Origin: an uncultured Candidatus Peribacteria bacterium
GTDB taxonomy: Bacteria > Patescibacteriota > Gracilibacteria > BD1-5 > UBA6164
Reading direction: 5' to 3'
NCBI GenBank assembly: GCA_964500515.1
Contig: CAZCNE010000002.1
Span: 109,180-173,179, forward strand
DNA length: 64,000 nt
The position numbers were made by a program, and so were the translations under genes. This document shows positions 25,149 through 43,189 of the stretch, piece by piece. The first letter of the stretch is position 1, and every line of letters starts with the position of its first letter. The notes below the pieces were generated by a model. It ran no database searches. It was not told the origin of the DNA and saw only the letters and a list, made by a program, of their open reading frames with translations.

Positions 25149-25180
25149 AGTTAGCTTATTAAGTTTTAGTCAAAAAAAAT

Positions 25181-26122: not shown

Positions 26123-26128
26123 AATTTT

Positions 26129-27115
26129 TTAAGACATCTTATTTATTATTTGTTTTAATTTCTCTAAAATCTCATCTTTATCTAAATCTAAATCTTTGTT
26201 TTTAAATTGTTCAAAATATGTTTCTTTTAATATTTTTAATAAATTTTCATCTGTTTTTGTATTTTTTGATATTTCTTTCAGAGTTTTTGTTCTAGCATTA
26301 GAAACTCAAATATGCTCAAATATTTCTCTTATTAAATCATTGATTTTAGCTAAAAAATCTCATTTATTTAAAGTTTCTTTTTCTTTTTTTATACTTTTTA
26401 ATTTATCCAAAAAATAATCTTTTTTAGAAACTTCTACTATTTTTTCTTGAATAATTTCCTCTTTTTTAGTTTCATTTAAAGAAAAATAATGTTTAAGTAA
26501 ATAATAAAATAATAAAAAAAATCCTAGTATAAGAAAAAACCAAAAATATAAATTAAAATTAAAATCTTTTTGTCAAATATTGTCATTTATATCTGTCATA
26601 AAATTAGAATCTTCATTGTTTTGGATATTTGAATTTTGAGAATTTATTCAAGAATTTAATTTATCTCAAACTTCTACTAAAACCTTATTTGAAATGTTTT
26701 TTTTATCTCAATGTTCTATTTCTACAGGTCAAATCTCAAAATTTCCTTTTTCTATAGCTTGAAGTTTTATTTCAATATCATAAATTCATTTTGTTTCTCA
26801 ATTTATTGTTTGCATTCTTATAGAGCTACTATTTCAAAGCAAATTAAACTTTTCAAGTCAAGCTATATTTATATCTCAAATATCATTTTGGTCTCATAAT
26901 TCCAAAGATGCCTTTAAAGTAAAACTTTCTCAAATTCAAATTTTTGAGTCTGAAATTTCTAAATTAAGCTTATTTAAATTTCATGAATTTGTTTGTAAAC
27001 CTCATGAACTTGCAAATGAGTCTGAAAAACAAAAAATTAAAGTAAAAAATATAATTATAAGTCCTAAAATTTTTAGTTTTTGGAATATTTTTGTTGTTTT
27101 TTCATTAAATCACAT
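26129..27115 (-). CDS. BatD-like secreted/membrane protein
   Basis: 328 aa. Signal peptide, then a beta-rich module (ISDSKIGIGESFTLKASLEL...IEKGNFEIGPVEIEHGDKKNISNKVLVEV), one TM helix (LYFWFFLILGFFLLFYYLL) and a helical C-terminus. The start is ATG-TGA (MG...). Confidence 0.55.
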
Positions 27116-27116
27116 A

Positions 27117-27989
27117 TTATTTTAATTTAAAAAAGTAAAAAAATTCTTTGTAAATATTTGTAAAATTATCTATTTTTAAGTAAGAAATTCAAAGCTTATT
27201 TAAATAATTTGATAATTTTTTAATTTTTTCTTGCCTATATTTTTTATAATTTTCTTTTTTTTCATCGTCATTTAAATCTATGTTTAAAGTATCTCAAAGT
27301 TTTGACTTAAATCACATTATTCAAAGATTATTTTCATTTATTTCCAAAGTATTTTCAAAATTATCAAATATGTTGATGTAAACAATATCATTTTTTAGAG
27401 ATAAAACTTTTAAATTTTTATCATTTATTACATCCATTTCATCAGTCAAAATAAACAAAAAATTGTTTTTTAATTTTATCTGATTTAAAAATAAAATCAT
27501 ATTTTGTAAATTATTTTCATTTTTTTTAATTTTTAAGTTATTTGTAAAGTTTAAAATTTCTTTATATATGTTAAAAATATGAGATTTTCATCTTTTTGCC
27601 TGAAAAATTTTAAAATCATCTTCTTTAAAAATAATAGCTCAAACTTTATCTGAATTTTCTATACTTGATAAAGCTAAAAGAAAAAAAATTTCAAGTAGAG
27701 AATCTATTTTTTTCTTTTCAAAACCAAAATTCATATTGTTTCTTAAATCAAGAAGAAAAAATACTTTTATACTTTTATCTATATTATATATTTTTGTAAG
27801 GATTTTTTGCCCTCTTGCTGAAACTAACCAATCTATATCTTTTGAATCTTCTCAAGTTTCATATTCTTTATATTCAGCAAATTCTAACCCCTTTCATTTA
27901 AAAAGACTTTTAAAATTTCAAGCATCAAAACTTGAAATCATTTTTTTTGTTTTTATATCTAATTTCTGAAAATTTTTTATAGCATCCAT
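27117..27989 (-). CDS. DUF58-family protein (MoxR-associated)
   Basis: 290 aa. KGKGLEFAEYKEYETGEDSKDIDW matches the DUF58 signature (G.EF...R.Y..GD....IDW). It lies directly downstream of the MoxR ATPase. Confidence 0.75.
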
Positions 27990-28060
27990 AAAAAAGTTAA
28001 AAAGTTTAAAAGAAAGATATACAATTTTTTCATCATTTACTCATTTTATCGCTTATTCGT

Positions 28061-29014
28061 CTATTTTACTTTCACATTTTTTAGTATTTCATCTATCAAA
28101 TGATCAATTTGTATATTATCCGCTAGTGCTTCATAATTAAGTATAAGTCTATGTCTTAAAACTTGTTTTGCTATATCCTTTATATCCTCTGGAATAACAA
28201 AATCTCTTCAAGATAAAAAAGCTAAAGCTCTTGATGCAACAAGTAAGGAAATTGAAGCTCTAGGTGAAGCTCAGTAAAAAAGATATTTTCATACATTATT
28301 TTCCTGATTTCTTGTGTAAAAAACTATGTCTTTTATGTATTTTAATATATTATCATCAACATAAATTTCTTTCGCTTGTTTTTGAATTTCTATAATATCT
28401 TTTTTTCACATAACTTTTTTTATAGAACTCAAATCATTACTTAAAGAATTATTTTTCATAATTTCTATTTCTTCTTTCTCACTTGGATAAGAAATCATTG
28501 TTTTAAAAAGAAATCTATCAAGTTGTGCTTCTGGAAGATTATAAGTTCAATCCTGTTCTATAGGGTTTTGTGTTGCCAAAACTATAAAGGGTTCTTCAAG
28601 TTTAATTGTTTTATCAGCAATAGTAACTTGTCTTTCTGCCATAGCTTCTAAAAGCGCTGATTGAACTTTTGAAGGAGCACGATTTATCTCATCTGCTAAA
28701 ACAAAATTTGAAATAATTGGACCTTCTTTTATATAAAATTCTTTTGTTTCAGGTGTATAAGCTCTTGCTCAAATCAAGTCACTTGGAAGTAAGTCTGGAG
28801 TAAATTGAATACGAGAAAAATCAAGATCAAGAGCTTTTGCTAAACTAGAAATTGTAAGAGTTTTTGCAAGTCAAGGAACTCATTCTATCAATATATGTCA
28901 TCTACAAAATAAAGTTATAAGCAAATCTCTTAGCAAATCTTCTTGTCAAATCACAAGTTTTTTTACCTCTGTTTTTAAATTTTCAATTTTTTGAGTGTAT
29001 ATATTTGATTCCAT
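28061..29014 (-). CDS. MoxR-family AAA+ ATPase
   Basis: 317 aa. Walker A reads GHILIEGVPGLAKT, with Gly codons TGA at 28871-28873 and 28880-28882. Walker B and sensor region: [28 protein letters not shown]. Confidence 0.9.
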
Positions 29015-29104
29015 AATCTTCTTTTTAAAAAATACTTTAATTTATTATAAATTTTTTTTATTTTTTTCAAACATTAAAGTATTTTTCTTAAATATTTCTT
29101 AAAT

Positions 29105-29141: not shown

Positions 29142-31697
29142 TTACTCTGCATAATAAACCCATCTATACCTTAAATCTTTATCACAAGTAAAAATTATTA
29201 TTTTGGTTCAAAGTGGAACATCTTCTTTTAACTTATCAATATCTTCTTCTTTTACTTTAACTACATCTTTTATCTTATGAGATAATTTTTGTCAATTTCT
29301 TGTAATATTTATTTCATCTCATTTTGCCAAAGATCATCAAATAAGTTTTTTAAATACAGCTCAATAAGGATTTTTATCTTCTGGCCAAATTGATGAATGT
29401 CATAAAATTATAGTTCTTCATCTAAGAGTATCTTCATAGAATCAAGCTCATGACTCTTCCAAATCTTTTAACCATACACTTGGATGTTCAAGTAATGTTC
29501 TTGATGGTGAAACATGAATATCTAACTTATCTATATCAAGCTTTATAGAATCTTTATACTCTTCTTCTCAAGCTTTTTTCATTATCAAAGCTCTGTATAT
29601 AAATCATGAAGCTTCTTCTCTTGTTATTTGTTTATTAATATTTGAATTTTGATTAAAACTATATGGTAATAAATTCTTTGTTTTCAAAATTTCTACAGAA
29701 TCATTTTCATTTCAAGCTTCTCATAAATTAAATCATGAAACTATTGTATCACTCAATACTTTATATGTAACTGTTCATTCAGGATTAAAACTATTTTCTG
29801 TTTCTCAAGTCATTATTCATTGTTTTATTGCATTATAAATATATTTTTCGTACCAAGTTCAAGTAGTAACATCATTGTATGGCATATAATAAATATTTCT
29901 TTCTTCAATCTCACTTTCTGTTCAAATAAGTATCATTTTTGATAATTCAAGTCTTTTTAAGTTTCTTTTTGGCTCTACTTTTTCAAGTCATCATCCGCCT
30001 ATTACTCAATACCTATACAATCAAATAAGAGATTCATAGTAAGGATTATTTCAATCAGTTCAAGAAATTAAACTTTCTCAATTATACTTTTTAAACAATG
30101 ATAAAGGAATTATTCAAGTTTTAGGAATTACTCATAAATATGAAGTAAAATCATCAATAAGCTTAATTTTTTCTATTTTTTGTATTATACTGATATCTTT
30201 TTCAATAACACTATCATTATCTTGAGTATTATTATTATTTCCTGAAATTTCTTTTGGAGACAAAATAGCTGGTAAATTATCTTCTACTTTTGAATCTTCT
30301 TCTTTAACTATACTTCCTGTATCACTTTCTTGAGATTCTGGCTTTTTTATTTCGCATATTCAATCATGTAAATTTCATGAATTATCTCAATATGGACAAT
30401 TATCGACACTCGAAGATCATCATCAAATATGTGGAGTTGTTATTCAAGGATTTGTTGTTCAAGTATTTATTCATCCAGTAGAGATTGGACTTTCCAACAC
30501 TGACAGACTAACTTTTGTTGGAGCGGTATTATTGTATGGATTTAAATCTCAGTCAGGATCTGGACTTGCTCAATCTTGAGAATAGTCAATCAATTCCTCA
30601 TTAGTTACCTTGTTTAATCAAGAAATTTTTGCTATATTGTCATATGTTCAAGATTTTGTATTTAAACCTAATTTTAGGTCTAATAAAACTTTTATTTCTT
30701 GTCATACAGGTAAGTTTACTCAAGATCAAGTAAATATTTTTTTATTTGTTAATCAATTGAAATATGAATTTATAACTCAAGTTCATCCCGCAATACTCAA
30801 TTTTGTTCATAATATATCAGCTCAAATAAAGCTTGCTTGTAAATTTTCTTCAATTTGAACATTTTCTAAATTTATATCTCACATATTTTTTCATTTTAAT
30901 TCGTATTTTATGTCAAAAATTCATTCTTTATTTTTATCTACTTTTGGTGATAAAAGCATTTTTGAAATTCATAAAACTGCATTACTCGTAAATCAAACTC
31001 TTGTTGGTTCTGAATTATTTCAAGGGTTATAATCCTTATCAGGATCAACATCAGATCAATCTTGTGATAAATCAGTTTTTACTTCATTAGTATTTGGAAC
31101 AATTCACATAGCTTTTGATGAATTAAAAAATGGTCAAACAGAAGAAATTGGAATAACTCTTAAACTAATTCTAGCTATAGCTTCTTCAAATTCATTTAAT
31201 TTATCATTTCAAGTTAATATTTTTATATCTTCTTTTCAATTATAATTTGAGTTTAAATTTATATTTCAACTAATAATTTTTGTTTTAACATTTTCTATTT
31301 TAGCTCAAGAAAATGCTCTTGCTAAATCATCTTCTATTTGAATATTTGTTAGTAATCAAATTCAAGAATTTTTTACTTTTAATTCATATTCTACATTGTA
31401 AGTTCAATCTCAATTTTTAATTAAATCTACTAACCTTTTTGCTATACCTATTTTTGGACTTAAAACTAGTAAACTATCTCCAGCTCAAGAATAACTATAT
31501 CATAATCACGAGGCAAAAATTTTACTAGCTTTATTATGATATAAACCTTCATTATAAGCAACAACATCAATTGATAAAGTACAAGAATCTTCTGCTGGAA
31601 TAACAAGTCAAGAAACTATTACACTTTTTGATCATGATCATGCTGGAGTACTAATAATTAAGTTATTTTCAGGGTATTCAAAAAATTCAGGAGATCA
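29142..31697 (-). CDS. C-terminal section of the giant surface protein (or a separate 851-aa ORF): two DUF11-like modules, SLH-like modules, sortase-like catalytic domain
   Basis: The first ATG after the in-frame TAA (31704-31706) is 31697. DUF11-like blocks: YELKVKNSGIGLLTNIQIEDDL...DLSQDGSDVDPDKDYNPGNNSEPTRV and YELKGKNMGDINLENVQIEENL...DYSQDGASPDPDGDLNPYNNTAPTKV. SLH-like block: YNDVTTGTWYEKYIYNAIKQGIMTGETENSFNPEGTVT. Sortase-like C-terminus: RTIILGHSS...KGDEINIT...TKIIIFTCDKDLRYRWVYYAE*. The last 380 nt were verified codon by codon. Confidence 0.7.
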
Positions 31698-31703
31698 TAG
31701 ACA

Positions 31704-34700
31704 ATTAGTTGTCATATTTTCATTTGGATCTCATGCTAAAACCATTTGTCATGGAATACTTGGAAATATATCATAAAAAGGTGCATAAATCGTAAATCAT
31801 TGATTTTGTAGTGTTACTTCTTGTGAATTAGGATTTTTAATCTCAAAATTTAATCTTGTTTTTTCTCAAGGATACACAACTTTTTTATCAAAATATTTTT
31901 TTATACTTAATGGATTTATTTCTTGCACAAATAAAGAAACTTCAGAACTTGGTGCTCAAGCATATGAAATTTCCTGAACTTTTACTCAGCTAGTCACATT
32001 TGGATGCTCTCATAATATATCACTTGTTACCTTAATAATAAACATTTTAGATTCATTAGCTTTTAAATTAAAATTGCTTATATCTATACGCTTCCTATCT
32101 CAAGATATTGTGTATTTATATGATCAAGAATCACAAGGAGGATAACTACTAGAAATATTATCTTGAATATTGCATTGAACTTCAGCTCATGAAGAAATCT
32201 GCATATTATTTAATTCATCATAAAAACTAGCGTTTGTAAAATCATTATCCGTCATATTTGCTACCAAAAAAAGTAAATTTGACACAGATCATTTTGATAT
32301 TTGTTGATCAATAAACATTTTTTGAATATTTGGAGGGGTATTTCAAACTTGTAGGTAAGCTACATTTGATTTTGCTCAAGTTCATAATTCATTAGAATAA
32401 ACTTCTGTTGTCTGGTTTGGATAAACTCAAGATTCTACACTTGTAATAATATCAATTCTTATTGAACATCAAGCTCATGGTAATAAAGACATATTTGATA
32501 CTTCTATTATATTTCATCAAGCCTCTGCATTAACTATTCAATTACAATTATTTACTATATTTGAAGGAGTAGCTATTGTTATTCATGATAAATAATCACT
32601 AAATTTTATTCAAGTAAAACCACCAGGTAATATATAATCAAGATTAGGATTTTGAATATAAAAAGTCATTGTTGTTTTTCATCATCATTCTGGAAAATTC
32701 ATTTGATAGTAATTTTTTTCAATACTTATATCTCTTGGTTTTACTATTATTAAATTATCTTTATTACTCTTTTTTCATGTTCAAGTTTCATTTGAATATA
32801 TTTCTGTTGTTTGATTTGGGTAAATTCATAAATTTGTAGCTATTGATTTTATTTTAACCGATATATTACAAGAGGCATATAATGGAAGTGATAAATTTGT
32901 AAGTTCAAAAGTATCTCATCAAACCTCTGCTTCATATGTAAAATCATTACAATCTGATTGTATATCTAAAGGATCTGATAAAATCATTCAGGTTAAGAAA
33001 TCACTAAATCTGATTCAAGTTAAATCTCAAGAATATGTGCTAGCATTGTTCATGTTACTAACACTAAAGGAAATATATGACTCCTTTCAAACCAAAATCT
33101 CATTTGGTTGAAAAGTTTTTACAAGAATTGGTGGAATTGGTCATGTGACAACTAAATTAGCCAAATTACTTTTTTGTCCTGTTTGAGTTTCATTTGAATA
33201 TATTTCTGTTGTTTGATTTATGTGTGTTCATATTTTGTTACTTGTTACATCAACATATATATAACACTGTTGTCACCATGAAGTAGATTCTAAACTAGCA
33301 TTTGTTACTTTAAAAGTATCTCATGAGGCCTCTGCTTCATATGTAAAATCATTACAAGTTGATGTAATATTTAATGGATCTGTTAGTGTCATACCGCTAA
33401 GTGTGTCACTAAATTTAATTCATGTGAATCATCATGGTAAAATTTGAGTAGAATTTTTATTAAATATTGAAAATGTTATTGTTGATATTCATCAAGTTCA
33501 AATAAACTTAGGACTAAAAGATTTTTCTATTCTGGGTGGAATTGGATTTACAACTTGTAAGTTTGCTATATTTGATTTTGCTCAAGTTCATAATTCATGA
33601 CTAATTATTTCGCTAGTTTGATTATTTAAAGTTCAAATAGTATTTCATGTTATTTCAACATATATTTGACAAAATGATCAAGGTGATATAGATAAATTTG
33701 TTACTTTAAAAGTATCTCATCAAGCTTCTGCTTCATATGTAAAGTCATTACAATTTGATGTTATACTTAGTGGATCTGTTAACGTTATACCACTAAAAGT
33801 ATCATTAAATTTAATTCATGTTAAATCTCAAGGCATTATTTGATTATTGTTTGGATTATTTATTTCAAACAATATAGTTGAAGATTGTCATTTTCCTATA
33901 TAACCAGGAGAAAAATACTTATTTATTTTAGCATTTACTGGTTTAGAAATTTCTAAGTTTGCAATATTTGATTTAGCTCAAGTTCAGATTTCATTTGTTA
34001 TTATTTCACTTGTTTGATTAGGAAATGTTCAAACATTATTTCAAGATTTTACATCCACATAAACATAACAATTATTTCATCATCATGCTGTTCAAAGTAA
34101 ATTTGCATTTGTAACTTCAAAAATATCTCATCAAGCTTCTGCTTCATATGTAAAATCATTACAAGTTGATGTTATATTTAGTGGATCTGTCAATGTCATA
34201 CCACTAAGAGTATCACTAAATTTAATTCATGTTAATCCTCATGGTAAAATACTTAAACTATTTGGATTGTGAATTTGAAATGTTATTTGAGATACTTTTC
34301 AAGTTCATGTTAAATTTGGAGAAAACCACTTACTAACTGTTGCATTACTTGATTTTAATATATTTAAATTTACTATATTTGATTTAGCTCAAGTTCATGA
34401 CTCATTTGAATATATTTCTGTTGTCTGGTTTGGATAAGTTCAGTATTGTATTCAAATCACATCAAAAGAGACTAAACAAGATGTAGTTGGTGAAACTGTA
34501 GCATTTGTTATATCAATTTTATTTCATCAAGCTTCTGCTTCATATGTAAAGTCATTACAACTTGATGTTATATTTAATGGGTTTGTTAGTATCATACCAC
34601 TAAGAGTATCACTAAATTTAATTCATGTTAGTCATCATGGTAAAGTACTTGAACTATTTGGGTTATAAATTTGAATATTTATAGTTGTTGTTCAAGACAT

Positions 34701-37700
34701 ACCTATATTACTTTTAGTGAAACTTTTATTTATAGTTGGCTTTTGAGCTTCAGTAACATAAAGATATCAAGTATTACTTCTTGATCAAGTTCAAGTTTCA
34801 TTTGTTACTATTTCACTAGCTCTATTTATCAAAGTTCAGACAACATTTCAAACTACATCCATATTTATCAGACAATACTCTTTTGGAGAAATTGTTACTC
34901 ATGAAACACTAAAAAAGCTTCATCATGCAATAGCTTCATAACTTACATTATCTCAACAACCGCTAAAAGTTATATTTAAAGGATTTGTTAAAGTCATACC
35001 ACTAAATGTATCACTAAATCCAATTCAAGTTAGTCATCCAGGAAGAAAACTACTAAGATTGGAATTATATAATCTAAATGTTAACTTAGATTTTTCTCAT
35101 TTTATTATGTAAAGAGGGTCAAATAGTTTTTCAAAACTTGGTTCTTTTAAATCAACAATATCTAAATTTACAATATTTGATTTAGCTCAAGTTCATAATT
35201 CATTTGAAAATATTTCTGTTGTTTGGTTTGGATGAGTTCAAACAACATTAGAAGTTACTTCAAAATATATATAACAATCTGAGCTTGGAGAAATTGTTGC
35301 ATTTGTAATTTCAAAAATATTTCATCAAGGTGAAGCGTTATAAGAAAAGTTCATTCAACAATTAGATGAACTAATATTTAATGGTGTGCTTAAAATCATT
35401 CAACTAAGAACATCTTTAAATTTTACTCAAGTCAATCATCAAGATAGTGTTAAATAACTATTTGGATTATTTATCTTTAAAGTAATTTTTGAATTTGTTC
35501 ATCTTAAAATAATGTTTGGTGATATACTTTTAATTATACTAGCAGGTTTTGGAGGAGTTACAGTAAGATTTGCTATATTTGATTTTGCTCAAGTTCAATT
35601 TTCATTAGTATAAACTTCGTTTGTTTGATTTGGATGAATTCAAACTATATTACTTGTTACTCTAATATCTACATAACAACTCGAATTTGGAGGAATTGTT
35701 GCATTTTTTATTTCAAATTGATTTCATCATTGAACTCATTGATAATCAAAATTTTGACAAGTAGAATTAAAATTTATAGGACTTGATAAAACCATTCAAC
35801 TAAGAGTATCTTTAAATTTTACTCAAGTAATTCAAGCTGGAAGAATAGTAGAATTATTAGGATTTGTTAAGTTTATTCTTATTGTTGAAACATCATTGTA
35901 AGATATAGTTGTAGGAGAAAATGTTTTTTGTATTTTTATAGGTTCTATAATCTTTAGATCAGCTTTAACTGAATCTGGATTTTTTGTATCAAGAATTGAT
36001 TTAAGATCTCATGCTGCAATTGTGTTTGTATATAATCAAGCTCAAGTTCAAGTAATTGAAGCATATATTTGACAAGCACTTTCTGCCTTAAATAATCATC
36101 AGTCTAATCTAAGATAAGAAGTTCCATCAGGATTTATTCATTTTGTAACTATTCATCAAGAACAAGTAGTTGTTGGAGTTCAAACTATACTTAGTCAAGC
36201 TGGAAGAGTATCAATAATAGCTGGACTTGCTCAAGTCTCATCGTTTTGAATTACTTGAGTATTAAATATTTCAATTATCAAAGTTGTATTTTTTCACTTT
36301 TCTATTATATTTGGACTAAATCATTTTCATATATTTAAATTTCTTGCAACAGTCAATGTTGCAGCAGAATCATTACTATTAGTAATTCACTCCTTTGTTA
36401 CTACATCTCAAGAAGATAAGGTATTTATATGATTTCATCACTTATAACTTGTTACATTAAACTCAAAATGACAAATTCAACCAGCATCCATAAATGCATC
36501 AGATAAAATCATTTTATTACTTCAAATAGATCAAGAAAAAGTTCATCATCTACATTTTCAAGTTACAGATTTGTATTGATCTGTAAAATTAGGATTTGGA
36601 TTTGTATGAATTTTTATATCTGTTGGTAATTCATCAGTAATTCACACTCAAGATAAATTTATGGCTTCACTTAAAGTATTTTCAAGAGTAATCCTTACTC
36701 TAGACACTCATCATCAATTTATTACTGGTGGTATAAACTCTTTATTTGCTGTAATACTTACAGCCTTTCTTGTTATATCAGCATTTACATTGGAATAATT
36801 TTCAAATTGTCATCAGTTATAATCTTTTGCAGAAAAATATATATTTTTTCAATGTGTTGATCAGGTAATTGTGTTTGTAGATTTTTGAATAGTTTGTCAA
36901 GATGTAAGAGCTGGTACTCTTACATTTATATATATATTACATTCTGCTGAATTTGATAAAGAAGATAAAGTTCCTCAAGACAACGAAATACTAGATGTTC
37001 AAGGATTTCAAATAATTTCTCATCAACAATCATTTTTTATATCAGGATTTGAAGAAATAGTATGTCAAAACGGTAGACTGTCTAACAAATTTATATTTTT
37101 AAGAGGAATATAATCATAAGAACTTCTTCTAATTCTTATTCTAAGTCTTGTTTCTCATAAAGGTCATACAGTATTTGGAATAAATTCTTTATATAAAGAA
37201 ATCGCAGGATATACATAAACTTGATTTTTTAGTTCAAAAGGAAAAACTGTTGATCATGAAGATGCTGTATTCTCATACGTTATATTTCAAACAGGAATAG
37301 TATTATATTTCCATTGATTTATTGGATATGTATCTGTATCTGATTTAATAGGTATAGTAAAAGTACAAGAAGAATTTTTTGGGATTGTAAGATTATTAAT
37401 ATTTATAATACTTGTTCATACCGGTGCATTTGCTTCTACTGAAGGACATGTTGTAACATAACTATCAGCAATTTTAAAAAAAGGATCTGTATCTCAAGGA
37501 ACTCAATTATCAATTCACATCGTTGATAAATCGTCTTTTAATTTCAAGTTTATAACATCAGTTGCCTTACTTCTATTTGTAAAAGTAAATATTATATTTG
37601 TTTTATCTCATTGATAAATATATTGTCTGCTAAATTTTTTATCAATTCAAACAATATTACTATTTACTGTTAATGTTGAAGAAAATTGATTGTATTCATA

Positions 37701-38984
37701 AGTATTTAAATCTCAAGCTGGGACTATGTTTGTATAAGTTCATACATCATTAACTTTAACTTTTACAGACAATGTACAACTTCAATTTTGAAATCAAGGA
37801 GCATTTAAATTTGCTGCTTTTAAAGTTGCTCAACTAAGTTCCAAAATTGTTCATCAAGATGAAGAACTAAGAGTTCAAGAACATGTATTTGATATCAAAC
37901 TATCATAAGCCATTATTCAATTTAAACTTTTTGGCAAAACATCTTTTATATAAAAATTTTCTATTGGCTTTGCATTATAATTATAAAAATTAATATTTAG
38001 AGTTGTTGTGTCTATATCATTTATATCTATTACATTTGGAATAAAATTTTTACTTATATTTATTCCTTGAGCTCATCACATTGTATAAGATATATCTTGA
38101 TAATTTATAGCTCACTCTTCTGTTGTTACATTTCAGATTGGTAATCTATTTGTCGAACTATAGCTATTATATGGGTCTTTTGGATTTTTTGATGGTTCTA
38201 CATCAAAAGATATAGTACATTCTCAAGGAATCACTCAAGAAGACGGAGGGATAATTCATCAAGAAAAACTAATCTTTGATGATACTCAATATGAATTTGT
38301 ATAATCAACTATACTAAAGGATCAAGAACATGTAGATTTTCAAGTTCAAGGAATTGCATGCAATCATCTAGAATAATTATTTAAATCATCTAAAAAACTA
38401 AGATTATTTAAGCTAATTGGATTAGGATTTTTTAAGCTAATTTTCACTGTTCAAAACTCATATCATTGTATATAACTTGTTGTTGTATTGGTTCCAGAAA
38501 AAACCATAGTTTTTGTTCAAGTTATGTTTTGAAGCATAGTAACCAAAGTTCATTGGGTACTTTGTTCATTTTGAACAGGATTTCCTCATACTGTTCAAGT
38601 TACATCTCATACATCAATTGTGTTTATATAAGTTCATTTTTTAGGAGAATATACATCTAGTATGATATTACAAGTTCAAGGATTTGTTCAATCTCAAGCT
38701 GAAACTATTCATCAACTTAAATTAACAACTCATCATGTTAATGTGTTTAAAGTTTCAATAGTTCAAGAACAAGAGTTGTATATATTGCTTGGACTTGCCA
38801 CAAATAAATCTTCTGGAAAATAGTCAGTTAATTTAGTATTTATTGTTGGTATAAGTGATGAATTTTGAAGTTTGATTGTTAATTTTGATATTTCTCTAGG
38901 ATAGATATTTGCTGGAGCGAAACTTTTATTTACATCAAGTGCAGCAAATGTAGCTAATGGAACTATAATAAAAATTATTAGCAA
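31704..38984 (-). CDS. giant tandem-repeat surface protein (about 18 beta-sandwich-type two-Cys repeats), N-terminal section
   Basis: TTG 38984 (MLIIFIIVPLATFA/ALDVNKSF, signal-peptide-like) to TAA 31704-31706, 2426 codons. Frame confirmed at 37937, 36383, 34148, 32999 and 31742. Repeat consensus: ..NPNS..LPGGLTGIKFSDTLSGM.L..PLNITS.CNDFTYEAEAGG......NA..SP..SC.......G..PNQT.EI.SNE.GTGAKSN. The true start may be ATG 39027 (see findings). Confidence 0.75.
32300..35700 (-). repeat. in-frame tandem DNA repeats, period about 400 nt, inside the giant gene
   Basis: Long recurring strings on the plus strand. CTGCTTCATATGTAAA(A/G)TCATTACAA occurs near 32927, 33337, 33737, 34137 and 34537. ATTTGATTT(T/A)GCTCAAGTTCA occurs near 32365, 33572, 33972, 34378, 35175 and 35578. 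TTCATTTGAATATATTTCTGTTGT occurs near 32788, 33188 and 34402. Confidence 0.85.
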
Positions 38985-39093
38985 TAAATAATATTTTTTT
39001 ATAAGTTTTTGATTCTTTATTTTGCATACAAATGCTGCTGAAATTCCTTTAACCGAAATTCCATGAAATTTCTTTCAAGAAAATTGAGTTTAT

Positions 39094-41250
39094 ATGTGAA
39101 AAAAGATTTTGGATGAAGAAAAGGTTGAAGAATACAGATTAAATTACATAAGAAATTATATTTCTGGAATGTCTGATGATTACCCTTATAAAGTAGACAT
39201 TTCTAGAATAAATCAATCTATGTATTATCCTATTAAAATTAACTGAAATTATAATATAACTAGTGTTAAAGATTATGAGTGAAAAGATATAAATTTTACT
39301 CAAACATGAGACACAATAAGAATATATTATGATTCTTTTTTAAATAGTTTTGGAACTTGAATTTATGATACTGAAAATCTAATTTTGAAAGATTATTCTC
39401 CTTATCATAAATCTCCTAAGCAATTAACTATTAGTGATTCTGAGTGAAATTCAACTACAATAAATTTTCAGTTTTTTTCTTCAATTGCCAATTTTAACCA
39501 ACAAATAACACAATGAAATACAACTTACATAATAAAAGAAGATGATAACTTAAATATTTCTTTATCTAAAGATTATAATAACGCAGATGTTAAACTATTT
39601 GCATTAAAGTATTTTATACCAAACTTTAATAATTATGAAAAAATAATTGGTGATATAATAAATGAAAAAAACATAAAAATTAATATTAACTACGATATAA
39701 TAAAAATATTAAACTTAAACTCTTATGATTTTAGTATAATCAGTATAAATACTTTTTCAAAAAAGTCTTGTGACCCTAACTATTATTGGTACAATTCAAG
39801 AATTGCAGAACCAAGACTTATTAATGATCCTAATGATTTAGAAATACAAACTAAATTTGAGAATGAATTATTAAATACCTTTTATTGAGCTAATATAGAA
39901 TTAAGTAAAAGTGAATGAGGAGAATTTGTACCTTATACTAATGTTAGTACTAATACAAATATAACACAGTTTGATCAACTTGAAGACTGATTGTATAAGT
40001 ATAAAATAACAAATTTAGATACTGAATATAAAAGAATTTGTGCTAATCATTTTAACTCTTCTGATATTAATATAAATTACGGTAAATGAAATTATTTTTT
40101 ATTTGTTGAGTGAAATATTCATAAATATAATTCACCTTTAGATTGAGATATTATTAATCTAGAAGAATTTTTATCTGAACACCAAATTGAACAATCAAAT
40201 TATTTTAATGTTTCTCTAAAGGATTTTGAATGAGAAGTTATTGCGTCAATTGATAAAGATTGTTTTTTAAATTGATCATGCAACTTTAAAAATAATGTAG
40301 ATAATTATCTTTATGATATAGATCCCTGCGAAAAAGCTAATTTGAGTATAAGTTATAAAGATTATTATAATGAAATAGATTTAAATAATGAAATTTTGTT
40401 ATGATCTGATTGTAGTTTAGAGCCTAGTATTAATGAAATAGATTTTTTTACTGATGATTTTTATATGAATTATAAAATAGATATTGAAAATATAGATAAT
40501 TTAAATTATGTTTTTTATGATAAAAATGACAATATAATAAGTGATGTAAATGAGTTTAGATCGGAAGAAATAGAAGAAGCTTATGCAAATACTAGTCCTG
40601 TAGAAATTCTTTGAAATATATTTTATTGAACTGATCCATGATACTCTTCTTTCATATGAATAAAAAATGATTCTTTAATTTTTGATAATATATGAAAAAT
40701 TGTTGTTTTTAATAATTGAACCGAGGTGTGAACAATTACCTTTAATTCAGAACAAAGAGCCATATTTGAGAAAATTGAAACTGATAATGATTTAAAGGGA
40801 GGTTTTAGCCTTAGAGAAAATATTAGCATAGAAAGTAAAAAAATTATATGAAAAAATTTTGAAAATTTAATTTTTAATAGAAAATTAAAAATTGATCTTT
40901 CAAGGTTTGAAGAAACTTATAATTCTAGAATTTTATTAGATAGAATAAACTTAAAATTAGATCTGATAAATAAAATAAATGTAACTAATATAGATAAATC
41001 AAAACTATTTGTTTGTAGAAACGCTATAGGAACTCAAGAACAATTTGATAATATTGAAAATATGTTTTGATGTTATGATTTAAAATCTATTGAAGAAGAT
41101 AATACATGATTTTATTATTATAAAGAATATCCTGGAATATTTAATTTATATATTTATTGAAAAAAATGACTTGTAAATGAAGATTTTAAAAATTTTGATG
41201 TTAATTTTAAGTTATTTTTTAGTAAAATGAATTTTACTCTTTTTGATTAA
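39094..41250 (+). CDS. hypothetical protein, 718 aa from ATG 39094 (742 aa if TTG 39022); Asn/Asp/Cys-containing, probably extracellular
   Basis: The frame is open from 38992 to TAA 41248-41250. Upstream in-frame codons read ..ISFGFFILHTNA/AEIPLTEIPG.. (signal-peptide-like), but the only canonical starts are TTG 39022 and ATG 39094. No family recognised. Confidence 0.6.
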
Positions 41251-41284
41251 AAATTATATTATTTTTTAAAAATAAAAAAAATCT

Positions 41285-43189
41285 ATGAAAAAAATTATTC
41301 TATATATATTGGTAGTATCCTTAAGTTTAAATAATTTTACTGTATTTGCCTGAGTTATAGGTGGTGATGTACCTCCATATTATTTTAATGATATGATTGA
41401 TTGAAGCTTTAATGTAACAAATTCTATAGAAAATTGAGTTTGTTGAAGCTCAAATTGACAAAACTTTACAGAAGTTCCAACACAAAATCTTTGTGCAAGT
41501 TGAAATACTTGAAGTATTACATGAAATTGACCTTGGACTTGGACTTGTGATTGAATTAATTGATGAAGTTCTGTAACTTGTCAAGCAAATCTTCTTACTT
41601 ATAGTATAAACTGAAAAGTCTTAGAAAAAGATACAAATAATCCTCTATCTAATGTAAAGTTGGAATTAATAAATTCTTCTTGAAATACATTAAATACTGT
41701 AAATACTAATTCTAGTTGAGATTATTCTTTCTCTGGTTTAGTTCTTTGAAATTATCAGATTAAAGAAAACGTTTTATCTTGATATATAGCAAGTTCTGAT
41801 TTTGATTGATGAGATCCTAGTTTAACAAATTTATTATTAAATTCTGATTTATCAAATATAAATTTTATTCAAGAAAAAATTACAAATAATACTTGAACTT
41901 GAACGACAAACACATGAACAACAAACACTTGATCCACAAATACATGAACAATTATACACACTTGATGAACTAGTTCTTATACTCCTCCTTGTTCTGAAAA
42001 TGATTTAGTTTGTAAAAAAGATTCTTCATGAAAATATATCTGGACTTTAAAAGAATCTAGTTTTTGTAAATCAGAAAATATTTGAAATGATTGTAGCGTT
42101 AATACTATTGAAAAAGAAAAAGAAATTGAAAATAAAACTTGAAATACTATTCCAACAGTAACAAGTAATGATCCTATTCCAAAAAATATAGAATTAGAAT
42201 CAGCACCTGAGAAAAAATGGATAGAAGATGCAGAAAATATAGTAAATAATTATGAAAATGAAGTAAAGCTACTTGAAGAAATACAAAATGATGAAAACAA
42301 AGTTTGAAATAATGAAATTGTAAAATTACCTAATTTTTTACTTCAAACTTGAGTTCCTGTATTGGAAAGAACAAAGGTAATAAAAAATAAAAATGTTGAA
42401 ACTGATACAAATAAAGAAGATTTTAGGCTAGCTTGAACTAATTCTCCAGATATAAATCATTGGCTTGAAGTAGTTCCTTTAGAAGATAAAAACAAAGATT
42501 TATATATAATTTTACCTTCTCAAGGTTTAGTTATGCCTATAAATACTATTAATAAAAATAGTGAAGACTACAAAAAATCTATAAATTGAGAAAATTTTGA
42601 TTTTTACAAATATTTAGAAACTTGAGCTTTAGAAGTTCCTTGAACATCAACTAATTGATATTGAGAAGTTTGAAATAAAGTAGTTATTTGACATAGTTCT
42701 TATTATAAATCATCAAATTGAAGATATAAAACTCAATTTCAAAAAATTATAGAAAATGAAATTTGAGAAGAAGTTTGGATTTATCAAAAACAAGAATCTT
42801 GAGAATATAAAAGATATAGATATATAACCCAAGAATCATACAATACAGATAAATCTGATACTGATGTATTGTTATCATGAAATTGAAAAAATCTTACATT
42901 GTATACTTGTACTCCTATTTGATGAACTAGCTGAAGATGGATTATCAAAGCAAAATATATAGATGAAGAAAAAAATTATTTATCAAAAAAAGTAAATTTT
43001 TCACAAATAAAAATAGATGATAAAATCGCTATACAAAAATTTACAAATAATATTTCAAAAGAAAAATCTATTGATGTATTTAATAAAACTTCTCCATTGC
43101 TTGAAAAATACTCTTCAAATACTAAAGCCACTAATTATCTAGATTATATTAGATTACAAATTGCACAAAAAATTACAAGCAAAAATTAG
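41285..43189 (+). CDS. secreted Cna-B/prealbumin-like domain protein fused to a sortase-family transpeptidase domain (634 aa)
   Basis: Signal peptide MKKIILYILVVSLSLNNFTVFAG. A Cys-rich segment is followed by GKVLEKDTNNPLSNVKLELINSSGNTLNTVNTNSSGDYSFSGLVLGNYQIKE (Cna-B-like) and a TGTGTTNTGTTNTG linker. C-terminal sortase motifs are NKVVIGHSSYY, EEVWIY and KNLTLYTCTPIGGTSGRWIIKAKY. The Cys codon at 42908 was verified in frame. Confidence 0.8.

What the first reader, a model, noticed from the sequence alone, without database searches (positions are those of the whole stretch)
29142..39027. Giant (about 3,280-codon) tandem-repeat surface protein that ends in its own sortase-like catalytic domain
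One minus-strand frame runs from 38984 (or ATG 39027) to 29142 with only a single TAA interruption, which is reported separately.

Architecture read from the translation:
- A signal-peptide-like N-terminus (..KKYYLLLIIFIIVPLATFA/ALDV).
- About 18 consecutive repeats of 130-140 aa. Each has two conserved Cys and recurring blocks: NPNS..LPGGLTGIKFSDTLSGM.L.DPLNITS.CNDFTYEAEAGG...NA..SP..SC....V....G..PNQT.EI.SNE.GTGAKSN.
- Two DUF11-like modules ending in D.SQDG.DPDPD.D.NP.N..PT.V.
- A Gly/Thr/Ser linker.
- Two or three SLH-like segments (YNDVTTGTWYEKYIYNAIKQGIMTGETENSFNPEGTVT).
- A final stretch of about 130 aa with the sortase His/Cys/Arg order and spacing: RTIILGHSS .. KGDEINIT .. TKIIIFTCDKD .. 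RYRWVYYAE*.

Sortases are normally small separate enzymes that act on LPXTG-type cargo. I know of no described case where a sortase fold forms the C-terminal module of a multi-thousand-residue adhesin-like protein. In code-25 CPR lineages thought to live attached to hosts, such a protein is an obvious candidate attachment or cell-wall-coupling device.
Basis: partly seen in the sequence, partly recalled or inferred. Interest (0 to 1): 0.85.

Follow-up and report, generated by a model that had tools for sequence, protein, structure and literature searches.

The report
Giant adhesin ending in its own sortase
This is one intact 9.8-kb gene of a UGA=glycine (code 25) bacterium that encodes a giant surface stalk ending in a wall-binding module and a divergent sortase domain. 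Related database proteins carry the sortase's own LPXTG target motif in the same chain, which suggests a surface protein that anchors itself.

Summary
On the minus strand, 38984 to 29142 is one open frame of 3,280 codons under code 25, with 273 UGA codons and no internal TAA or TAG. ATG 39027 is one base out of frame, across an A7 run.

Architecture:
- signal-like N-terminus
- 18 DUF7933 (CnaA-type isopeptide) stalk repeats
- 2 DUF11/CLIPPER-like modules
- low-complexity spacer
- an IPKTG pentapeptide
- an SLH wall-binding region (one strong and one weak SLH)
- a 138-aa C-terminal domain

The C-terminal domain gets no hit from Pfam Sortase. It is nevertheless homologous to CPR (Candidate Phyla Radiation) sortases: hhalign gives 98% probability, E 2.7e-13. 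His3196, Cys3267 and Arg3274 align with the catalytic triad. I could not predict its fold, because the tools refuse code-25 translations.

The fusion is not unique. The neighbouring gene (41276-43189) and dozens of database proteins of 1,000-3,805 aa, mostly unannotated and with the two named records from Gracilibacteria, also end in a sortase domain. In 34-45 of 60 such proteins an LPXTG motif lies about 50 residues upstream of the sortase, with no membrane helix.

Best reading: a self-contained, cis-acting sorting cassette. This is inferred, not shown. I found no description of it in the literature I could search. Verdict: a new variant of a known kind. Interest 0.66.

The parts
29142..38984 (-). 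Giant ORF: 3,280 codons under code 25 plus the TAA stop (29142-29144). The first in-frame start codon is TTG 38984.
38994..39027 (-). 5' end problem. ATG 39027-39025 is in the +1 frame. The A7 run at 38994-39000 is where a 1-nt length change would join that ATG to the ORF and give a canonical Sec signal peptide.
38940..38984 (-). Signal-peptide-like hydrophobic core and an A-x-A type site (LLIIFIIVPLATFA|ALDV).
   Evidence: Read directly from the translation. No signal-peptide predictor was available.
31440..38936 (-). 18 tandem DUF7933 (CnaA-like isopeptide-domain) repeats of about 134 aa. Lys is conserved in 17/18, Asp in 18/18, Asn in 17/18, and there are two conserved Cys. In repeat 11 the Asp-to-Asn spacing is 60, as in the Pfam reference protein.
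   Evidence: PMC12617251
30495..31457 (-). Two DUF11/DUF7507 (CLIPPER)-like modules that end in SQDGxDPDPDxDxNPxNxxPT.
30129..30494 (-). Gly/Thr/Ser-rich, then acidic, low-complexity spacer.
30114..30128 (-). IPKTG (aa 2953-2957), an LPXTG-type sortase motif. It lies between the stalk and the SLH/sortase modules and is followed by IIPLSLFKK.
   Evidence: The chance expectation for this 315-aa segment is 0.022. The flanking context is not significantly like the family motif.
29559..30113 (-). SLH wall-binding region. Strong SLH at aa 3035-3074 (29763-29882). Marginal SLH at aa 2981-3013 (29946-30044).
29145..29558 (-). Divergent sortase domain (aa 3143-3280). His3196 is at 29397-29399, Cys3267 at 29184-29186, Arg3274 at 29163-29165.
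41276..43189 (+). Neighbouring gene of 634 aa: signal peptide, SdrD_B/SpaA domain, Gly/Thr-rich linker (TGTGTTNTGTTNTGSTNTGT), a Pfam-significant Sortase domain and a 71-aa tail. It carries a variant in-chain motif (KLPNFLLQTG) about 55 aa upstream of the sortase domain. It belongs to the same locus and the same protein group.

Best explanation
**What it is.** The gene encodes a secreted, wall-associated fibrillar adhesin. A long stalk of 18 isopeptide-type DUF7933 domains and 2 CLIPPER-like domains is followed by a spacer, an IPKTG sortase-recognition motif, an SLH wall-binding region and, as the last 138 residues, a divergent but catalytically complete sortase domain.

**How it most likely works.** I read it as a self-contained sorting cassette.
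1. After Sec export, the SLH region holds the C-terminal end in the cell wall. This replaces the membrane anchor of ordinary sortases.
2. Cys3267 of the sortase domain attacks the Thr-Gly bond of the IPKTG in the same chain, forming a thioacyl intermediate with the stalk.
3. The enzyme then passes the stalk's new C-terminal Thr to an amine, either a wall precursor or peptidoglycan, or a Lys of another subunit.
4. The result is a stalk fixed covalently by a single-use enzyme.

**Shown.**
- The intact ORF and the genetic code.
- The domain identities.
- Sortase homology with aligned His, Cys and Arg.
- The presence and position of IPKTG.
- In the related 'fused' sortase group, an LPXTG motif is conserved about 50 aa upstream of the sortase domain with no membrane helix. 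AlphaFold places that motif confidently, with contacts that suggest it packs against the rest of the model.

**Inferred.**
- That the giant's own domain is active.
- That it cuts in cis.
- What the acceptor is.
For: **Gene and code:**

**Stalk domains:**
- DUF7933 matches 17 stretches, E 2e-232.
- My own profile finds 18 repeats, with the Lys/Asp/Asn triad and two Cys conserved.
- DUF7933 is a predicted isopeptide stalk domain of fibrillar adhesins (PMC12617251).

**SLH:**

**Sortase homology of the last 138 aa:**
- TIGR01076 E 1.7e-4 and class C sortase E 1.7e-3 are the top NCBIfam hits.
- PDB sortases 2xwg and 4d70 are among the top sequence hits.
- An HMM of the neighbour-type sortases scores 20.9 bits.
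- About 35 of the 158 retrieved proteins (nearly all sortases) hit at 15-30 bits.
- Identity to canonical CPR sortases is 27-32%, with the GHSS, TC and R columns invariant.
- hhalign gives 98% probability, E 2.7e-13, over residues 36-137.
- The A3 profile of twelve sequences (this domain plus eleven sortases) hits 61 PDB sortase chains, best 4d70 at 2e-18.

**Family context:**
- Long stalk proteins ending in a sortase domain.
- N-terminal signal peptides in these proteins.
- Sortase combined with SLH (and PG_binding_1 in P0106 and P0129) in P0092, P0106, P0115 and P0129.

**In-chain LPXTG:**
- [LI]PxTG lies 40-70 aa upstream in 19 of 88 proteins, against 2 occurrences in 34,392 aa of other upstream sequence.
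- In the fused type, 34/60 have the strict motif and 45/60 the loose motif. Only 4/60 have a membrane-helix-like segment nearby. Among canonical sortases 2/27 have the motif and 12/27 have such a segment.
- The consensus is [LY]PKxLPKTGTPI.

**AlphaFold models of two cassettes (homologues, not the giant):**
- P0004, pLDDT 86. The ten residues just before LPKTG average pLDDT 92.
- P0016, pLDDT 89. The block YPKQLPKTGV averages pLDDT 84, with a beta-bridge at the motif's Lys, followed by a disordered loop of about 10 residues.
- The P0004 model matches solved sortases at Foldseek E 1e-10; the P0016 model was not searched.

**Giant's IPKTG:** it is one of only two [LIV]PxTG motifs in all window ORFs of 100 aa or more, and both lie in this protein. 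The chance expectation for its 315-aa segment is 0.022.
Against: - Curated models do not reach threshold for the giant's C-terminus. Pfam Sortase gives no hit at E<=10 and TIGR01076 is below its cutoff.
- The domain lacks several positions that are nearly invariant in CPR sortases: the P of YPGT, the N of GN before the His strand, and TPxG after the Cys. Its Cys-to-Arg loop is two residues shorter. It could therefore be inactive.
- Its fold could not be predicted here.
- The giant's IPKTG lies about 190 aa from the sortase domain, not about 50 aa. The conserved FRLAG/WLQVLP linker of the fused group is absent.
- A position-weight test of the motif flanks was not significant. The best score was reached in 250 of 500 shuffles, and the flank-only score ranked 302 of 3,260.
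- One such pentapeptide somewhere in 3,280 aa is expected 0.24 times by chance.
- No orthologue was found, so conservation of the motif or the triad could not be tested.
- I had no access to model coordinates, so I cannot say that the docked LPXTG of the homologues lies in the active site. The best Foldseek matches are class C sortases, whose N-terminal 'lid' blocks the active site (the lid is from my own knowledge).
- No cleavage has been observed in any member.
Confidence: 0.45

Rival explanations
1. A wall-tethered sortase that acts in trans. The C-terminal domain is active but works on other LPXTG-type proteins, or on the neighbouring 41276-43189 product. The SLH region simply replaces the usual membrane anchor, and the giant stalk is anchored non-covalently by SLH. 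Conversely, the giant's IPKTG could be cut by another sortase, such as the neighbour's.
For: - The catalytic triad is intact.
- SLH lies next to the sortase domain here.
- Sortase plus SLH or PG_binding_1 occurs in P0092, P0106, P0115 and P0129.
- A second sortase gene lies 2.3 kb away.
- The giant's motif context does not match the family's in-chain motif.
Against: - No other [LIV]PxTG-bearing ORF occurs in the 64-kb window.
- In relatives, the LPXTG motif sits in the same chain at a fixed distance from the sortase and without a membrane helix. This is hard to explain for a purely trans-acting enzyme.
- One enzyme molecule per 3,280-aa stalk is an expensive way to make a general sortase.
Confidence: 0.2
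2. A relic or non-catalytic sortase-fold module. The domain is a decayed sortase kept as a structural or binding unit. The protein is held on the cell only by SLH, and the IPKTG is a chance pentapeptide.
For: - Pfam Sortase gives no hit, and TIGR01076 is below its cutoff.
- Several near-invariant family positions are lost and the Cys-Arg loop is shortened.
- No homologue of this particular domain exists in 5.8 billion proteins by word search.
- The motif is not statistically secure.
Against: - His, Cys and Arg are all retained and aligned, along with the GHSS and TC motifs. Decay usually removes such residues first (my own knowledge).
- The ORF is intact over 9.8 kb in an AT-rich genome, so it is under selection.
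Confidence: 0.2
3. The in-chain LPXTG is an autoinhibitory pseudo-substrate or lid, as in class C pilus sortases. It occupies the active site until a partner arrives, and it is not cleaved.
For: - The LPXTG segment of the homologues is modelled with high confidence, joined to the domain by a disordered loop.
- The best structural matches are lid-bearing class C sortases, with 185-208 aligned columns against about 160 for class A.
Against: - Known lids use a DP[WFY] motif, not the enzyme's own cleavable recognition sequence (my own knowledge).
- A genuine LPXTG beside an active Cys would be expected to be cut.
- In the giant the motif is 190 aa away, with SLH modules in between.
Confidence: 0.1
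4. An artefact or pseudogene. The ORF is an assembly chimera of repeat copies, or a dead gene, given that it has no in-frame ATG.
For: - The only ATG near the 5' end is out of frame across an A7 run.
- The gene is built of tandem repeats.
Against: - Repeat copies are at most 78% identical at the DNA level, and the longest exact repeat is 39 nt, so collapse or chimerism is unlikely.
- No stop occurs in 3,280 codons (P about 1e-107).
- The Lys/Asp/Asn triad and the Cys residues are conserved in nearly all repeats.
- An in-frame TTG start exists.
- The same organism turns up independently in four Logan assemblies.
Confidence: 0.05

Closest known systems
Sortase transpeptidases (Pfam PF04203, MEROPS C60). 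The nearest solved structures by profile are C. perfringens SrtD (4d70), A. oris SrtC-1 (2xwg) and B. anthracis SrtA (2kw8). The nearest sequences are small membrane-anchored sortases of Peregrinibacteria, Peribacteria, Saccharibacteria and Gracilibacteria.
   Same: - Homologous domain with the His-Cys-Arg triad and the GH and TC motifs aligned.
- 28-41% identity to CPR sortases over 65-120 residues.
   Different: - Ordinary sortases are separate enzymes of 200-415 aa. Among the canonical-type database relatives, 12 of 27 have a membrane-helix-like segment upstream of the domain.
- Here the domain is the last 138 aa of a 3,280-aa secreted protein, preceded by SLH rather than a membrane helix.
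- It scores below the curated family thresholds.
Uncharacterised 'stalk + LPXTG + C-terminal sortase' proteins from metagenomes; the only two with a source name are Ca. Gracilibacteria. Examples are NCBI MBS9775121.1 (P0016, 2,246 aa, 16 DUF7507 stretches), P0015 (2,394 aa), P0038 (3,805 aa), P0050 (13 SdrD_B stretches) and the window's own ORF 41276-43189.
   Same: - Signal peptide, a long stalk of isopeptide-type Ig-like domains, an (L/I)PxTG motif, and a sortase domain at the C-terminal end of the same chain.
- Use of code 25, shown by UGA at Gly positions and by LPKTW mistranslations.
   Different: - In the giant the motif is about 190 aa upstream rather than about 50 aa, with SLH modules inserted between.
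- The conserved FRLAG/WLQVLP linker is missing.
- The stalk is DUF7933.
- The sortase domain resembles the canonical membrane-anchored CPR type (GHSSYYPWDxGxYKDVF) at least as much as the fused type.
LPXTG-anchored fibrillar adhesins and pilins of Gram-positive bacteria (Cna, SdrD, SpaA types; CLIPPER/DUF11 proteins).
   Same: - Signal peptide.
- A stalk of tandem CnaA/CnaB-like isopeptide domains with disulfides.
- A sorting motif near the C-terminal end.
   Different: - Those proteins end in LPXTG, a hydrophobic helix and a charged tail, and they rely on a separate sortase.
- Here the motif is internal and is followed by only 7 hydrophobic residues.
- The chain then continues into SLH and its own sortase domain.
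SLH-anchored S-layer and cell-surface proteins.
   Same: An SLH domain above the Pfam threshold lies next to the wall-proximal end of a large surface protein.
   Different: - The classical anchor is three tandem SLH copies (my own knowledge). Here there is one strong and one marginal copy.
- SLH proteins are not known to carry a transpeptidase (my own knowledge).
Engineered self-cleaving sortase fusion tags (SrtA-LPXTG-target constructs used for protein purification and display).
   Same: Enzyme and recognition motif sit in one polypeptide and cleave in cis. This is the proposed chemistry. Only engineered examples turned up in the literature searches (e.g. PMC10726597).
   Different: - Those constructs are man-made.
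- In the version I recall, the enzyme is N-terminal to the motif (my own knowledge).
- They serve to release a product rather than to anchor one.

Membership tests
Sortase (PF04203 / TIGR01076 / MEROPS C60) | Score above the curated family threshold | tested here: not met
   Pfam gives no hit at E<=10. TIGR01076 scores 21.4 bits against a cutoff of 39.35, and class C sortase scores 18.1 against 160.
Sortase (PF04203 / TIGR01076 / MEROPS C60) | Demonstrable homology to bona fide sortases | tested here: met
   hhalign against ten CPR sortases gives 98.0% probability, E 2.7e-13. phmmer gives up to 29.7 bits to P0151 and P0131, which match Pfam Sortase at E 6e-27 and 1e-24. tblastn finds 22 CPR sortase loci.
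Sortase (PF04203 / TIGR01076 / MEROPS C60) | Catalytic His, Cys (TLxTC-type) and Arg in order and in the aligned columns | tested here: met
   His3196 (ILGHSS), Cys3267 (IIFTC) and Arg3274 (RYRW) fall in the invariant columns of alignment A3 and of the hhalign match.
Sortase (PF04203 / TIGR01076 / MEROPS C60) | Eight-stranded beta-barrel fold with the triad juxtaposed | not testable with these tools
   Structure prediction refuses code-25 translations of the window. Only homologues could be modelled. The P0004 model matches sortases at Foldseek E 1e-10; the P0016 model was built but not searched.
Sortase (PF04203 / TIGR01076 / MEROPS C60) | Membrane anchor next to the catalytic domain | tested here: not met
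   The domain is preceded by SLH modules and 3,100 aa of secreted stalk. There is no hydrophobic helix near it.
Sortase (PF04203 / TIGR01076 / MEROPS C60) | Transpeptidase activity on an LPXTG-type signal | not testable with these tools
   Requires biochemistry.
Fused 'stalk-LPXTG-sortase' proteins (group defined here from database proteins) | Adhesin-type stalk followed by a C-terminal sortase domain in one secreted chain | tested here: met
   Compare the group members.
Fused 'stalk-LPXTG-sortase' proteins (group defined here from database proteins) | L[P]x[TS]G motif 40-70 aa upstream of the sortase domain, in the context [LY]PKxLPKTGTPI | tested here: not met
   IPKTG is present but about 190 aa upstream. 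Its flanks do not match the family motif, with the best score reached in 250 of 500 shuffles.
Fused 'stalk-LPXTG-sortase' proteins (group defined here from database proteins) | Conserved ~50-aa linker (FRLAG ... W[LK]QVLP ... DKYIVLP) | tested here: not met
   The linker is absent from the giant, where SLH modules occupy that interval.
DUF7933 (PF25564), CnaA-like isopeptide domain | Pfam match above threshold, and the Lys/Asp/Asn triad | tested here: met
   757.8 bits against a cutoff of 26.5, in 17 stretches. Lys is conserved in 17/18 repeats, Asp in 18/18 and Asn in 17/18. In repeat 11 the spacings are Lys-to-Asp 39 and Asp-to-Asn 60, against 35 and 60 in the reference protein. The isopeptide bonds themselves cannot be tested here.
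SLH (PF00395) wall anchor | Pfam match above threshold | tested here: met
   35.6-47.6 bits against a cutoff of 20.8. Residues 3035-3074 match at E 2e-9 on their own.
SLH (PF00395) wall anchor | Three tandem SLH copies (the usual functional unit; my own knowledge) | tested here: inconclusive
   One strong copy, one at 12.5 bits (E 0.14), and a third segment with no hit.
DUF11 / DUF7507 (CLIPPER) | Family model above threshold | tested here: inconclusive
   TIGR01451 scores 27.8 bits against a cutoff of 24. Pfam DUF11 scores 17.9 and 13.7, and DUF7507 scores 16.3 and 15.1, all below their cutoffs. The homologue P0001, which carries PF24346 and PF01345, matches at E 6e-30.
Canonical C-terminal cell-wall sorting signal | LPXTG, then a ~15-20-residue hydrophobic helix, then a basic tail at the extreme C-terminus | tested here: not met
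   The motif is internal, 323 aa from the end. It is followed by only IIPLSLF and KK.

The most novel reading that the evidence does not exclude
These bacteria (the named database examples and this window are code-25, Gracilibacteria-type) make 'self-sorting' surface proteins. Each adhesin carries a single-use sortase at its C-terminus, which cuts the LPXTG motif in its own chain and couples the stalk covalently to the cell wall or to the next subunit. No membrane-anchored housekeeping sortase is needed. The window's giant would be a variant in which SLH modules, inserted between the motif and the enzyme, hold the cassette in the wall. A less likely extension is that the SLH-sortase end is the distal tip and ligates the stalk to the wall of a host cell.
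Probability: 0.35. Interest if true: 0.85.

Novelty: new variant of a known kind. Interest (0 to 1): 0.66.

Why it matters
**Why it would be new.** To my knowledge, every characterised sortase is a separate, membrane-anchored enzyme that serves many substrates. A natural protein that carries both the recognition motif and the enzyme would be a new way of building a bacterial surface. It would be comparable in concept to autotransporters.

**Why it would matter for these organisms.** It would explain how small-genome bacteria that are thought to live attached to other cells fix very long adhesins to their walls.

**Practical use.** It would supply natural single-chain sortase cassettes for protein engineering.

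**Testability.** Express a roughly 230-residue cassette with and without the catalytic Cys and look for cleavage at T|G.

**Value even if the mechanism is wrong.** The finding shows that dozens of giant metagenomic proteins, most of them unannotated, are mis-described. Those with a source name are called only 'DUF11 domain-containing' or hypothetical, and many are mistranslated with Trp in place of Gly. Curated sortase models also miss divergent members such as this one.

Tried and rejected
**Structure prediction of the giant's own C-terminus.** The domain contains 10 UGA codons and has no UGA-free stretch of 30 aa. I modelled two homologous cassettes instead.

**Word-indexed homology searches.**
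- The C-terminal 141 aa gave nothing.
- The last 772 aa gave only a DUF11-type protein and an SLH protein, neither with the sortase-like end.

**Scans for close relatives of the last 337 aa.** Nothing was found in GTDB genomes or in JGI metagenomes. A profile scan of GTDB returned only small canonical sortases of 200-415 aa. So there are no orthologues with which to test conservation of IPKTG or the triad.

**Look-ups of the source organism.**
- A UGA-free protein of 134 aa located the organism only on short Logan contigs.

**Position-weight matrix of the family's in-chain motif, scanned over the giant.** The IPKTG site scored best, but not significantly. I therefore do not claim that the giant's motif is homologous to the family's.

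**Considered and rejected: the fused architectures are read-through artefacts of a wrong genetic code.**
- UGA sits at invariant Gly positions.
- The linker between the motif and the sortase is conserved protein sequence.
- NCBI calls the same fusion under code 25.

**Considered and rejected: repeat-driven misassembly.** Repeat copies are at most 78% identical, and the longest exact repeat is 39 nt.

**Literature searches for a described natural sortase-substrate fusion.** The terms combined sortase with Gracilibacteria, Absconditabacteria, Patescibacteria, 'fibrillar adhesin', 'same polypeptide', self-cleaving and 'C-terminal sortase domain'. They returned only a passing mention of a sortase in a Gracilibacteria genome and engineered constructs.

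Full report
**1. The observation**

The window has about 22% G+C, and table 11 gives almost no long ORFs around the feature. Translated with code 25 or code 4, the minus-strand frame that starts at TTG 38984 runs for 3,280 codons to TAA 29144-29142 without any TAA or TAG. With the local base composition this has a chance probability of about 1e-107.

The frame contains 273 UGA codons but only 7 UGG. In 33 window genes UGA supplies 86% of all Gly codons, and UGG is still used. UGA also occupies the invariant Gly of the sortase GHSS motif, both in this gene and in the neighbouring sortase gene.

There is no in-frame TAA. ATG 39027 lies in the +1 frame and meets TAA at 38928-38926 in that frame. 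It joins the long frame only if the A7 run at 38994-39000 changes length by one base. That would give a textbook signal peptide, MQNKESKTYKK-YYLLLIIFIIVPLATFA|ALDV. As assembled, the first in-frame start is TTG 38984. Whether this reflects a homopolymer sequencing error, phase variation or a real TTG start cannot be decided here.

Misassembly of the repeats is unlikely. Repeat copies are at most 78% identical at the DNA level, and the longest exact repeat in the gene is 39 nt.

**2. Anatomy**

| Residues | Feature | Evidence |
|---|---|---|
| 1-15 | signal-peptide-like hydrophobic core | |
| 27-2509 | 18 DUF7933 repeats of about 134 aa | |
| 2510-2830 | two DUF11/CLIPPER-like modules | |
| 2831-2952 | Gly/Thr/Ser-rich, then acidic spacer | |
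| 2953-2957 | IPKTG | |
| 2958-3142 | SLH region | |
| 3143-3280 | sortase-like domain | |

- *Stalk repeats.* Pfam finds 17 DUF7933 stretches (E 2e-232), and an iterated profile of my own finds 18 repeats. DUF7933 was defined in 2025 as a CnaA-like domain predicted to hold an intramolecular Lys-Asn isopeptide bond with a catalytic Asp, often together with a disulfide. It belongs to the domain families that the survey places mainly in the stalks of fibrillar adhesins (PMC12617251). In the 18 repeats here the Lys is kept in 17, the Asp in 18, the Asn in 17, and both Cys in nearly all. In repeat 11 the Asp-to-Asn spacing is 60 residues, as in the reference protein. The N-terminal seven repeats are much more divergent than repeats 8-16.
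- *CLIPPER-like modules.* There are two, each ending in SQDGxDPDPDxDxNPxNxxPT. Support comes from TIGR01451 above its cutoff, from Pfam DUF11 and DUF7507 below their cutoffs, and from the homologue P0001 at E 6e-30.
- *IPKTG.* The pentapeptide sits in the sequence SYLGVIPKTGIIPLSLFKK.
- *SLH region.* It has one strong SLH (3035-3074, E 2e-9), one marginal SLH (2981-3013, E 0.14) and a third stretch with no hit.

**3. Is the C-terminus a sortase?**

Curated models say no, or not quite. Pfam Sortase gives nothing at E<=10. NCBIfam TIGR01076 and the class C sortase model are the two best hits, at E 1.7e-4 and 1.7e-3, but both are below their cutoffs. Against PDB sequences, two sortases (2xwg, 4d70) are among the top weak hits. 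The 4d70 alignment spans almost the whole domain.

The decisive evidence came from relatives.

- The neighbouring gene 41276-43189 has a Pfam-significant Sortase domain (E 1e-10) and hits the giant's C-terminus.
- A profile of its database relatives, searched against 1.84 billion representative proteins, returned 3,351 hits.
The best are ordinary CPR sortases, several with a hydrophobic anchor-like segment upstream (P0151, P0131, P0155, P0136, P0121). P0151 and P0131 match Pfam Sortase at E 6e-27 and 1e-24.
- In a 12-sequence alignment the giant is 27-32% identical to these enzymes. It shares the invariant GHSS, TC and Arg columns.
- hhalign of the giant's domain alone against ten of these sortases gives 98.0% probability, E 2.7e-13, over residues 36-137. 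His3196, Cys3267 and Arg3274 align with the catalytic residues.
- The 12-sequence profile hits 61 PDB sortase chains (best 4d70, 2e-18). Eleven of its twelve sequences are bona fide sortases, so this mainly places the family rather than the giant's domain.
- A tblastn-confirmed scan of GTDB genomes finds 22 sortase loci in Peregrinibacteria, Peribacteria, Saccharibacteria and Gracilibacteria. Identity reaches 41%.

I conclude that the domain is a genuine but divergent sortase homologue with a complete triad.

Caveats remain. Several near-invariant positions are lost and the Cys-Arg loop is two residues shorter. Its fold could not be predicted, because the structure tool refuses code-25 translations.

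**4. The fusion is not unique**

Among the 150 best representative hits, many are long proteins with the sortase domain at or near the C-terminus.

| Protein | Length (aa) | Sortase domain |
|---|---|---|
| P0038 | 3,805 | 3636-3793 |
| P0015 | 2,394 | near the C-terminus |
| P0088 | 2,359 | near the C-terminus |
| P0016 | 2,246 | near the C-terminus |
| P0050 | 2,086 | near the C-terminus |
| P0060 | 2,064 | near the C-terminus |
| P0049 | 1,643 | near the C-terminus |
| P0028 | 1,586 | near the C-terminus |

About a dozen more have 850-1,500 aa.

- Their upstream parts are adhesin stalks: DUF11, 16 stretches of DUF7507, 13 of SdrD_B, SpaA, GramPos_pilinBB, cadherin-like or Big_9 domains.
- Full-length members begin with Sec signal peptides.
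- P0016 is NCBI MBS9775121.1, 'DUF11 domain-containing protein [Candidatus Gracilibacteria bacterium]', and P0019 is a Gracilibacteria hypothetical protein. The other eight clusters I looked up carry no name at all.
- Many others are plainly code-25 proteins mistranslated with Trp for Gly, for example LPKTW and VPSNW.
- Four members combine the sortase domain with SLH, and two of these (P0106, P0129) also with PG_binding_1, placed after the sortase rather than before it.

So the giant belongs to a recurrent, unannotated architecture. It differs in having a DUF7933 stalk, SLH modules in front of the enzyme, and a sortase domain of its own lineage.

**5. An LPXTG motif in the same chain**

This is the most interesting result, and it was not part of the finding. 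In the fused group a sortase-recognition motif lies at a fixed distance upstream of the sortase domain.

- [LI]PxTG occurs 40-70 residues upstream in 19 of 88 eligible proteins. There are only 2 occurrences in the remaining 34,392 upstream residues.
- Counting the Trp-for-Gly mistranslations, 34 of 60 fused-type proteins have the strict motif and 45 of 60 have a loose one. Only 4 of 60 have a membrane-helix-like segment nearby.
- Among 27 canonical-type sortases, 2 have the motif and 12 have such a segment.
- The consensus is [LY]PKxLPKTGTPI, followed by a conserved non-hydrophobic linker (FRLAG ... W[LK]QVLP ... DKYIVLP).
- The window's neighbour gene has the variant KLPNFLLQTG.

AlphaFold models of two such cassettes are confident, with pLDDT 86 and 89.

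- In P0004 the ten residues just before LPKTG average pLDDT 92.
- In P0016 the block YPKQLPKTGV averages 84, with a beta-bridge at the motif's Lys. A disordered loop of about 10 residues follows before the structured part of the model.
- The motif is therefore modelled with high confidence although a disordered loop follows it, which suggests it packs against the domain. I could not read coordinates, so I cannot say whether it lies in the catalytic groove.
- Foldseek places the P0004 model among solved sortases. The best matches are lid-bearing class C pilus sortases (E about 1e-10). Class A enzymes superpose best on the core, at 3-4 Å over about 160 columns.

**6. Does the giant share this feature?**

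It has IPKTG at 2953-2957, exactly between the stalk and the SLH/sortase end. Only two [LIV]PxTG motifs occur in all window ORFs of 100 aa or more, and both are in this protein.

The chance expectation is 0.24 for the whole protein and 0.022 for the 315-residue interval in which it lies. However, it is about 190 residues from the sortase domain rather than about 50. The family linker is absent. A weight matrix of the family motif does not score its flanks significantly. No orthologue was found to test conservation. The motif is suggestive, not established.

**7. Mechanism**

The best-supported reading (confidence about 0.45) is a self-contained sorting cassette.

1. After export, SLH binds the wall polymer and positions the C-terminal sortase domain in the wall.
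2. Cys3267 attacks the Thr-Gly bond of the in-chain IPKTG.
3. The stalk, now thioester-linked, is transferred to an amine of the wall or of another subunit.
4. The SLH-sortase fragment is left behind.

What is shown: the gene, the domains, the homology, the triad, the motif, and the family-level enrichment and confident modelling of the motif. What is inferred: activity, cis cleavage and the acceptor.

Rival readings:

| Rival | Confidence |
|---|---|
| Wall-tethered sortase acting in trans, or the motif cut by another sortase such as the neighbour's | 0.2 |
| Decayed, non-catalytic sortase fold, with anchoring by SLH only | 0.2 |
| The in-chain motif is an uncleaved lid or pseudo-substrate, as in class C sortases | 0.1 |
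| Artefact or pseudogene | 0.05 |

**8. Context**

- The gene is followed on the same strand by a Bat-like operon: MoxR AAA_3, DUF58, BatD and two VWA proteins.
- It is transcribed divergently from a 718-aa ORF with no family match and from the sortase-fusion gene 41276-43189.
- A type IV pilin-like gene and a secreted beta-propeller protein lie further away.
- The same organism occurs on short contigs of four Logan assemblies.

**9. Novelty and score**

Sortases, isopeptide stalks and SLH anchors are all known. What is new is their union in one chain, with the enzyme at the C-terminus of its apparent substrate.

Searches of 7.7 million open-access papers and of bioRxiv found only a passing mention of 'a sortase' in a Gracilibacteria genome (PMC6851277), a statement that sortases are common in CPR (PMC6744442), and engineered self-cleaving sortase tags. 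No natural fusion was described. The search was by words in a partial library, so a description elsewhere cannot be excluded.

I rate the finding a new variant of a known kind, interest 0.66. The window's protein is a divergent and not fully proven example. It points to a recurrent and readily testable architecture that a sortase specialist would, I think, find surprising.

Noticed in passing
window 41276-43189 (+): A second sortase fusion in the same locus, 634 aa. It has a signal peptide, an SdrD_B/SpaA prealbumin-like domain, a Gly/Thr-rich linker (TGTGTTNTGTTNTGSTNTGT), a Cys-rich stretch, a Pfam Sortase domain (E 1e-10) and a 71-aa tail. A variant in-chain motif (KLPNFLLQTG) lies about 55 aa upstream of the sortase domain.
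   Followed up: yes
database proteins P0009-P0158, e.g. P0016 = NCBI MBS9775121.1: An LPXTG motif is conserved about 50 aa upstream of the sortase domain in the same chain. It is found in 34-45 of 60 'fused-type' sortase proteins, with no membrane helix nearby. AlphaFold models it with high confidence, ahead of a disordered loop. Public records annotate these proteins only as DUF11-containing or hypothetical.
   Followed up: partly
window 38994-39000 (A7 on the minus strand) and ATG 39027: The only ATG near the 5' end of the giant gene is one base out of frame across a homopolymer. This could be a sequencing error, slipped-strand phase variation of a giant surface protein, or a real TTG start.
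   Followed up: partly
whole window: The reassigned codon is used to an extreme degree. UGA supplies 86% of Gly codons in 33 genes (967 UGA against 159 GGN), including invariant catalytic-motif glycines.
   Followed up: partly
database proteins such as P0024, P0025, P0038, P0040, P0049, P0050 and P0060: Many public protein predictions for this lineage are mistranslated with code 4, giving Trp where the organism has Gly (LPKTW, VPSNW, FRLAW). This degrades family models and searches for these proteins.
   Followed up: no
window 39094-41250 (+): A 718-aa ORF with no Pfam match and no obvious signal peptide. It is transcribed divergently from the giant gene and lies directly upstream of the sortase-fusion gene, possibly in the same operon.
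   Followed up: no
window 24189-29041 (-): A Bat-like operon immediately downstream of the giant gene on the same strand: MoxR AAA_3 (28061-29041), DUF58 (27117-28052), BatD (26129-27121) and two VWA proteins (25181-26128 and 24189-25196).
   Followed up: partly
window 13317-14066 (-) and 14851-17226 (-): A type IV pilin-like protein with an N-terminal methylation motif, and a 769-aa secreted Beta_propel (PF09826) protein. Both are further cell-surface genes in the window.
   Followed up: no
giant protein residues 27-1014 compared with 1027-2215 (window about 35943-38906 and 32340-35906): Repeats 1-7 are far more divergent than repeats 8-16, which are 64-78% identical at the DNA level. This is consistent with recent expansion of the central stalk and a specialised, possibly ligand-binding, N-terminal end.
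   Followed up: no
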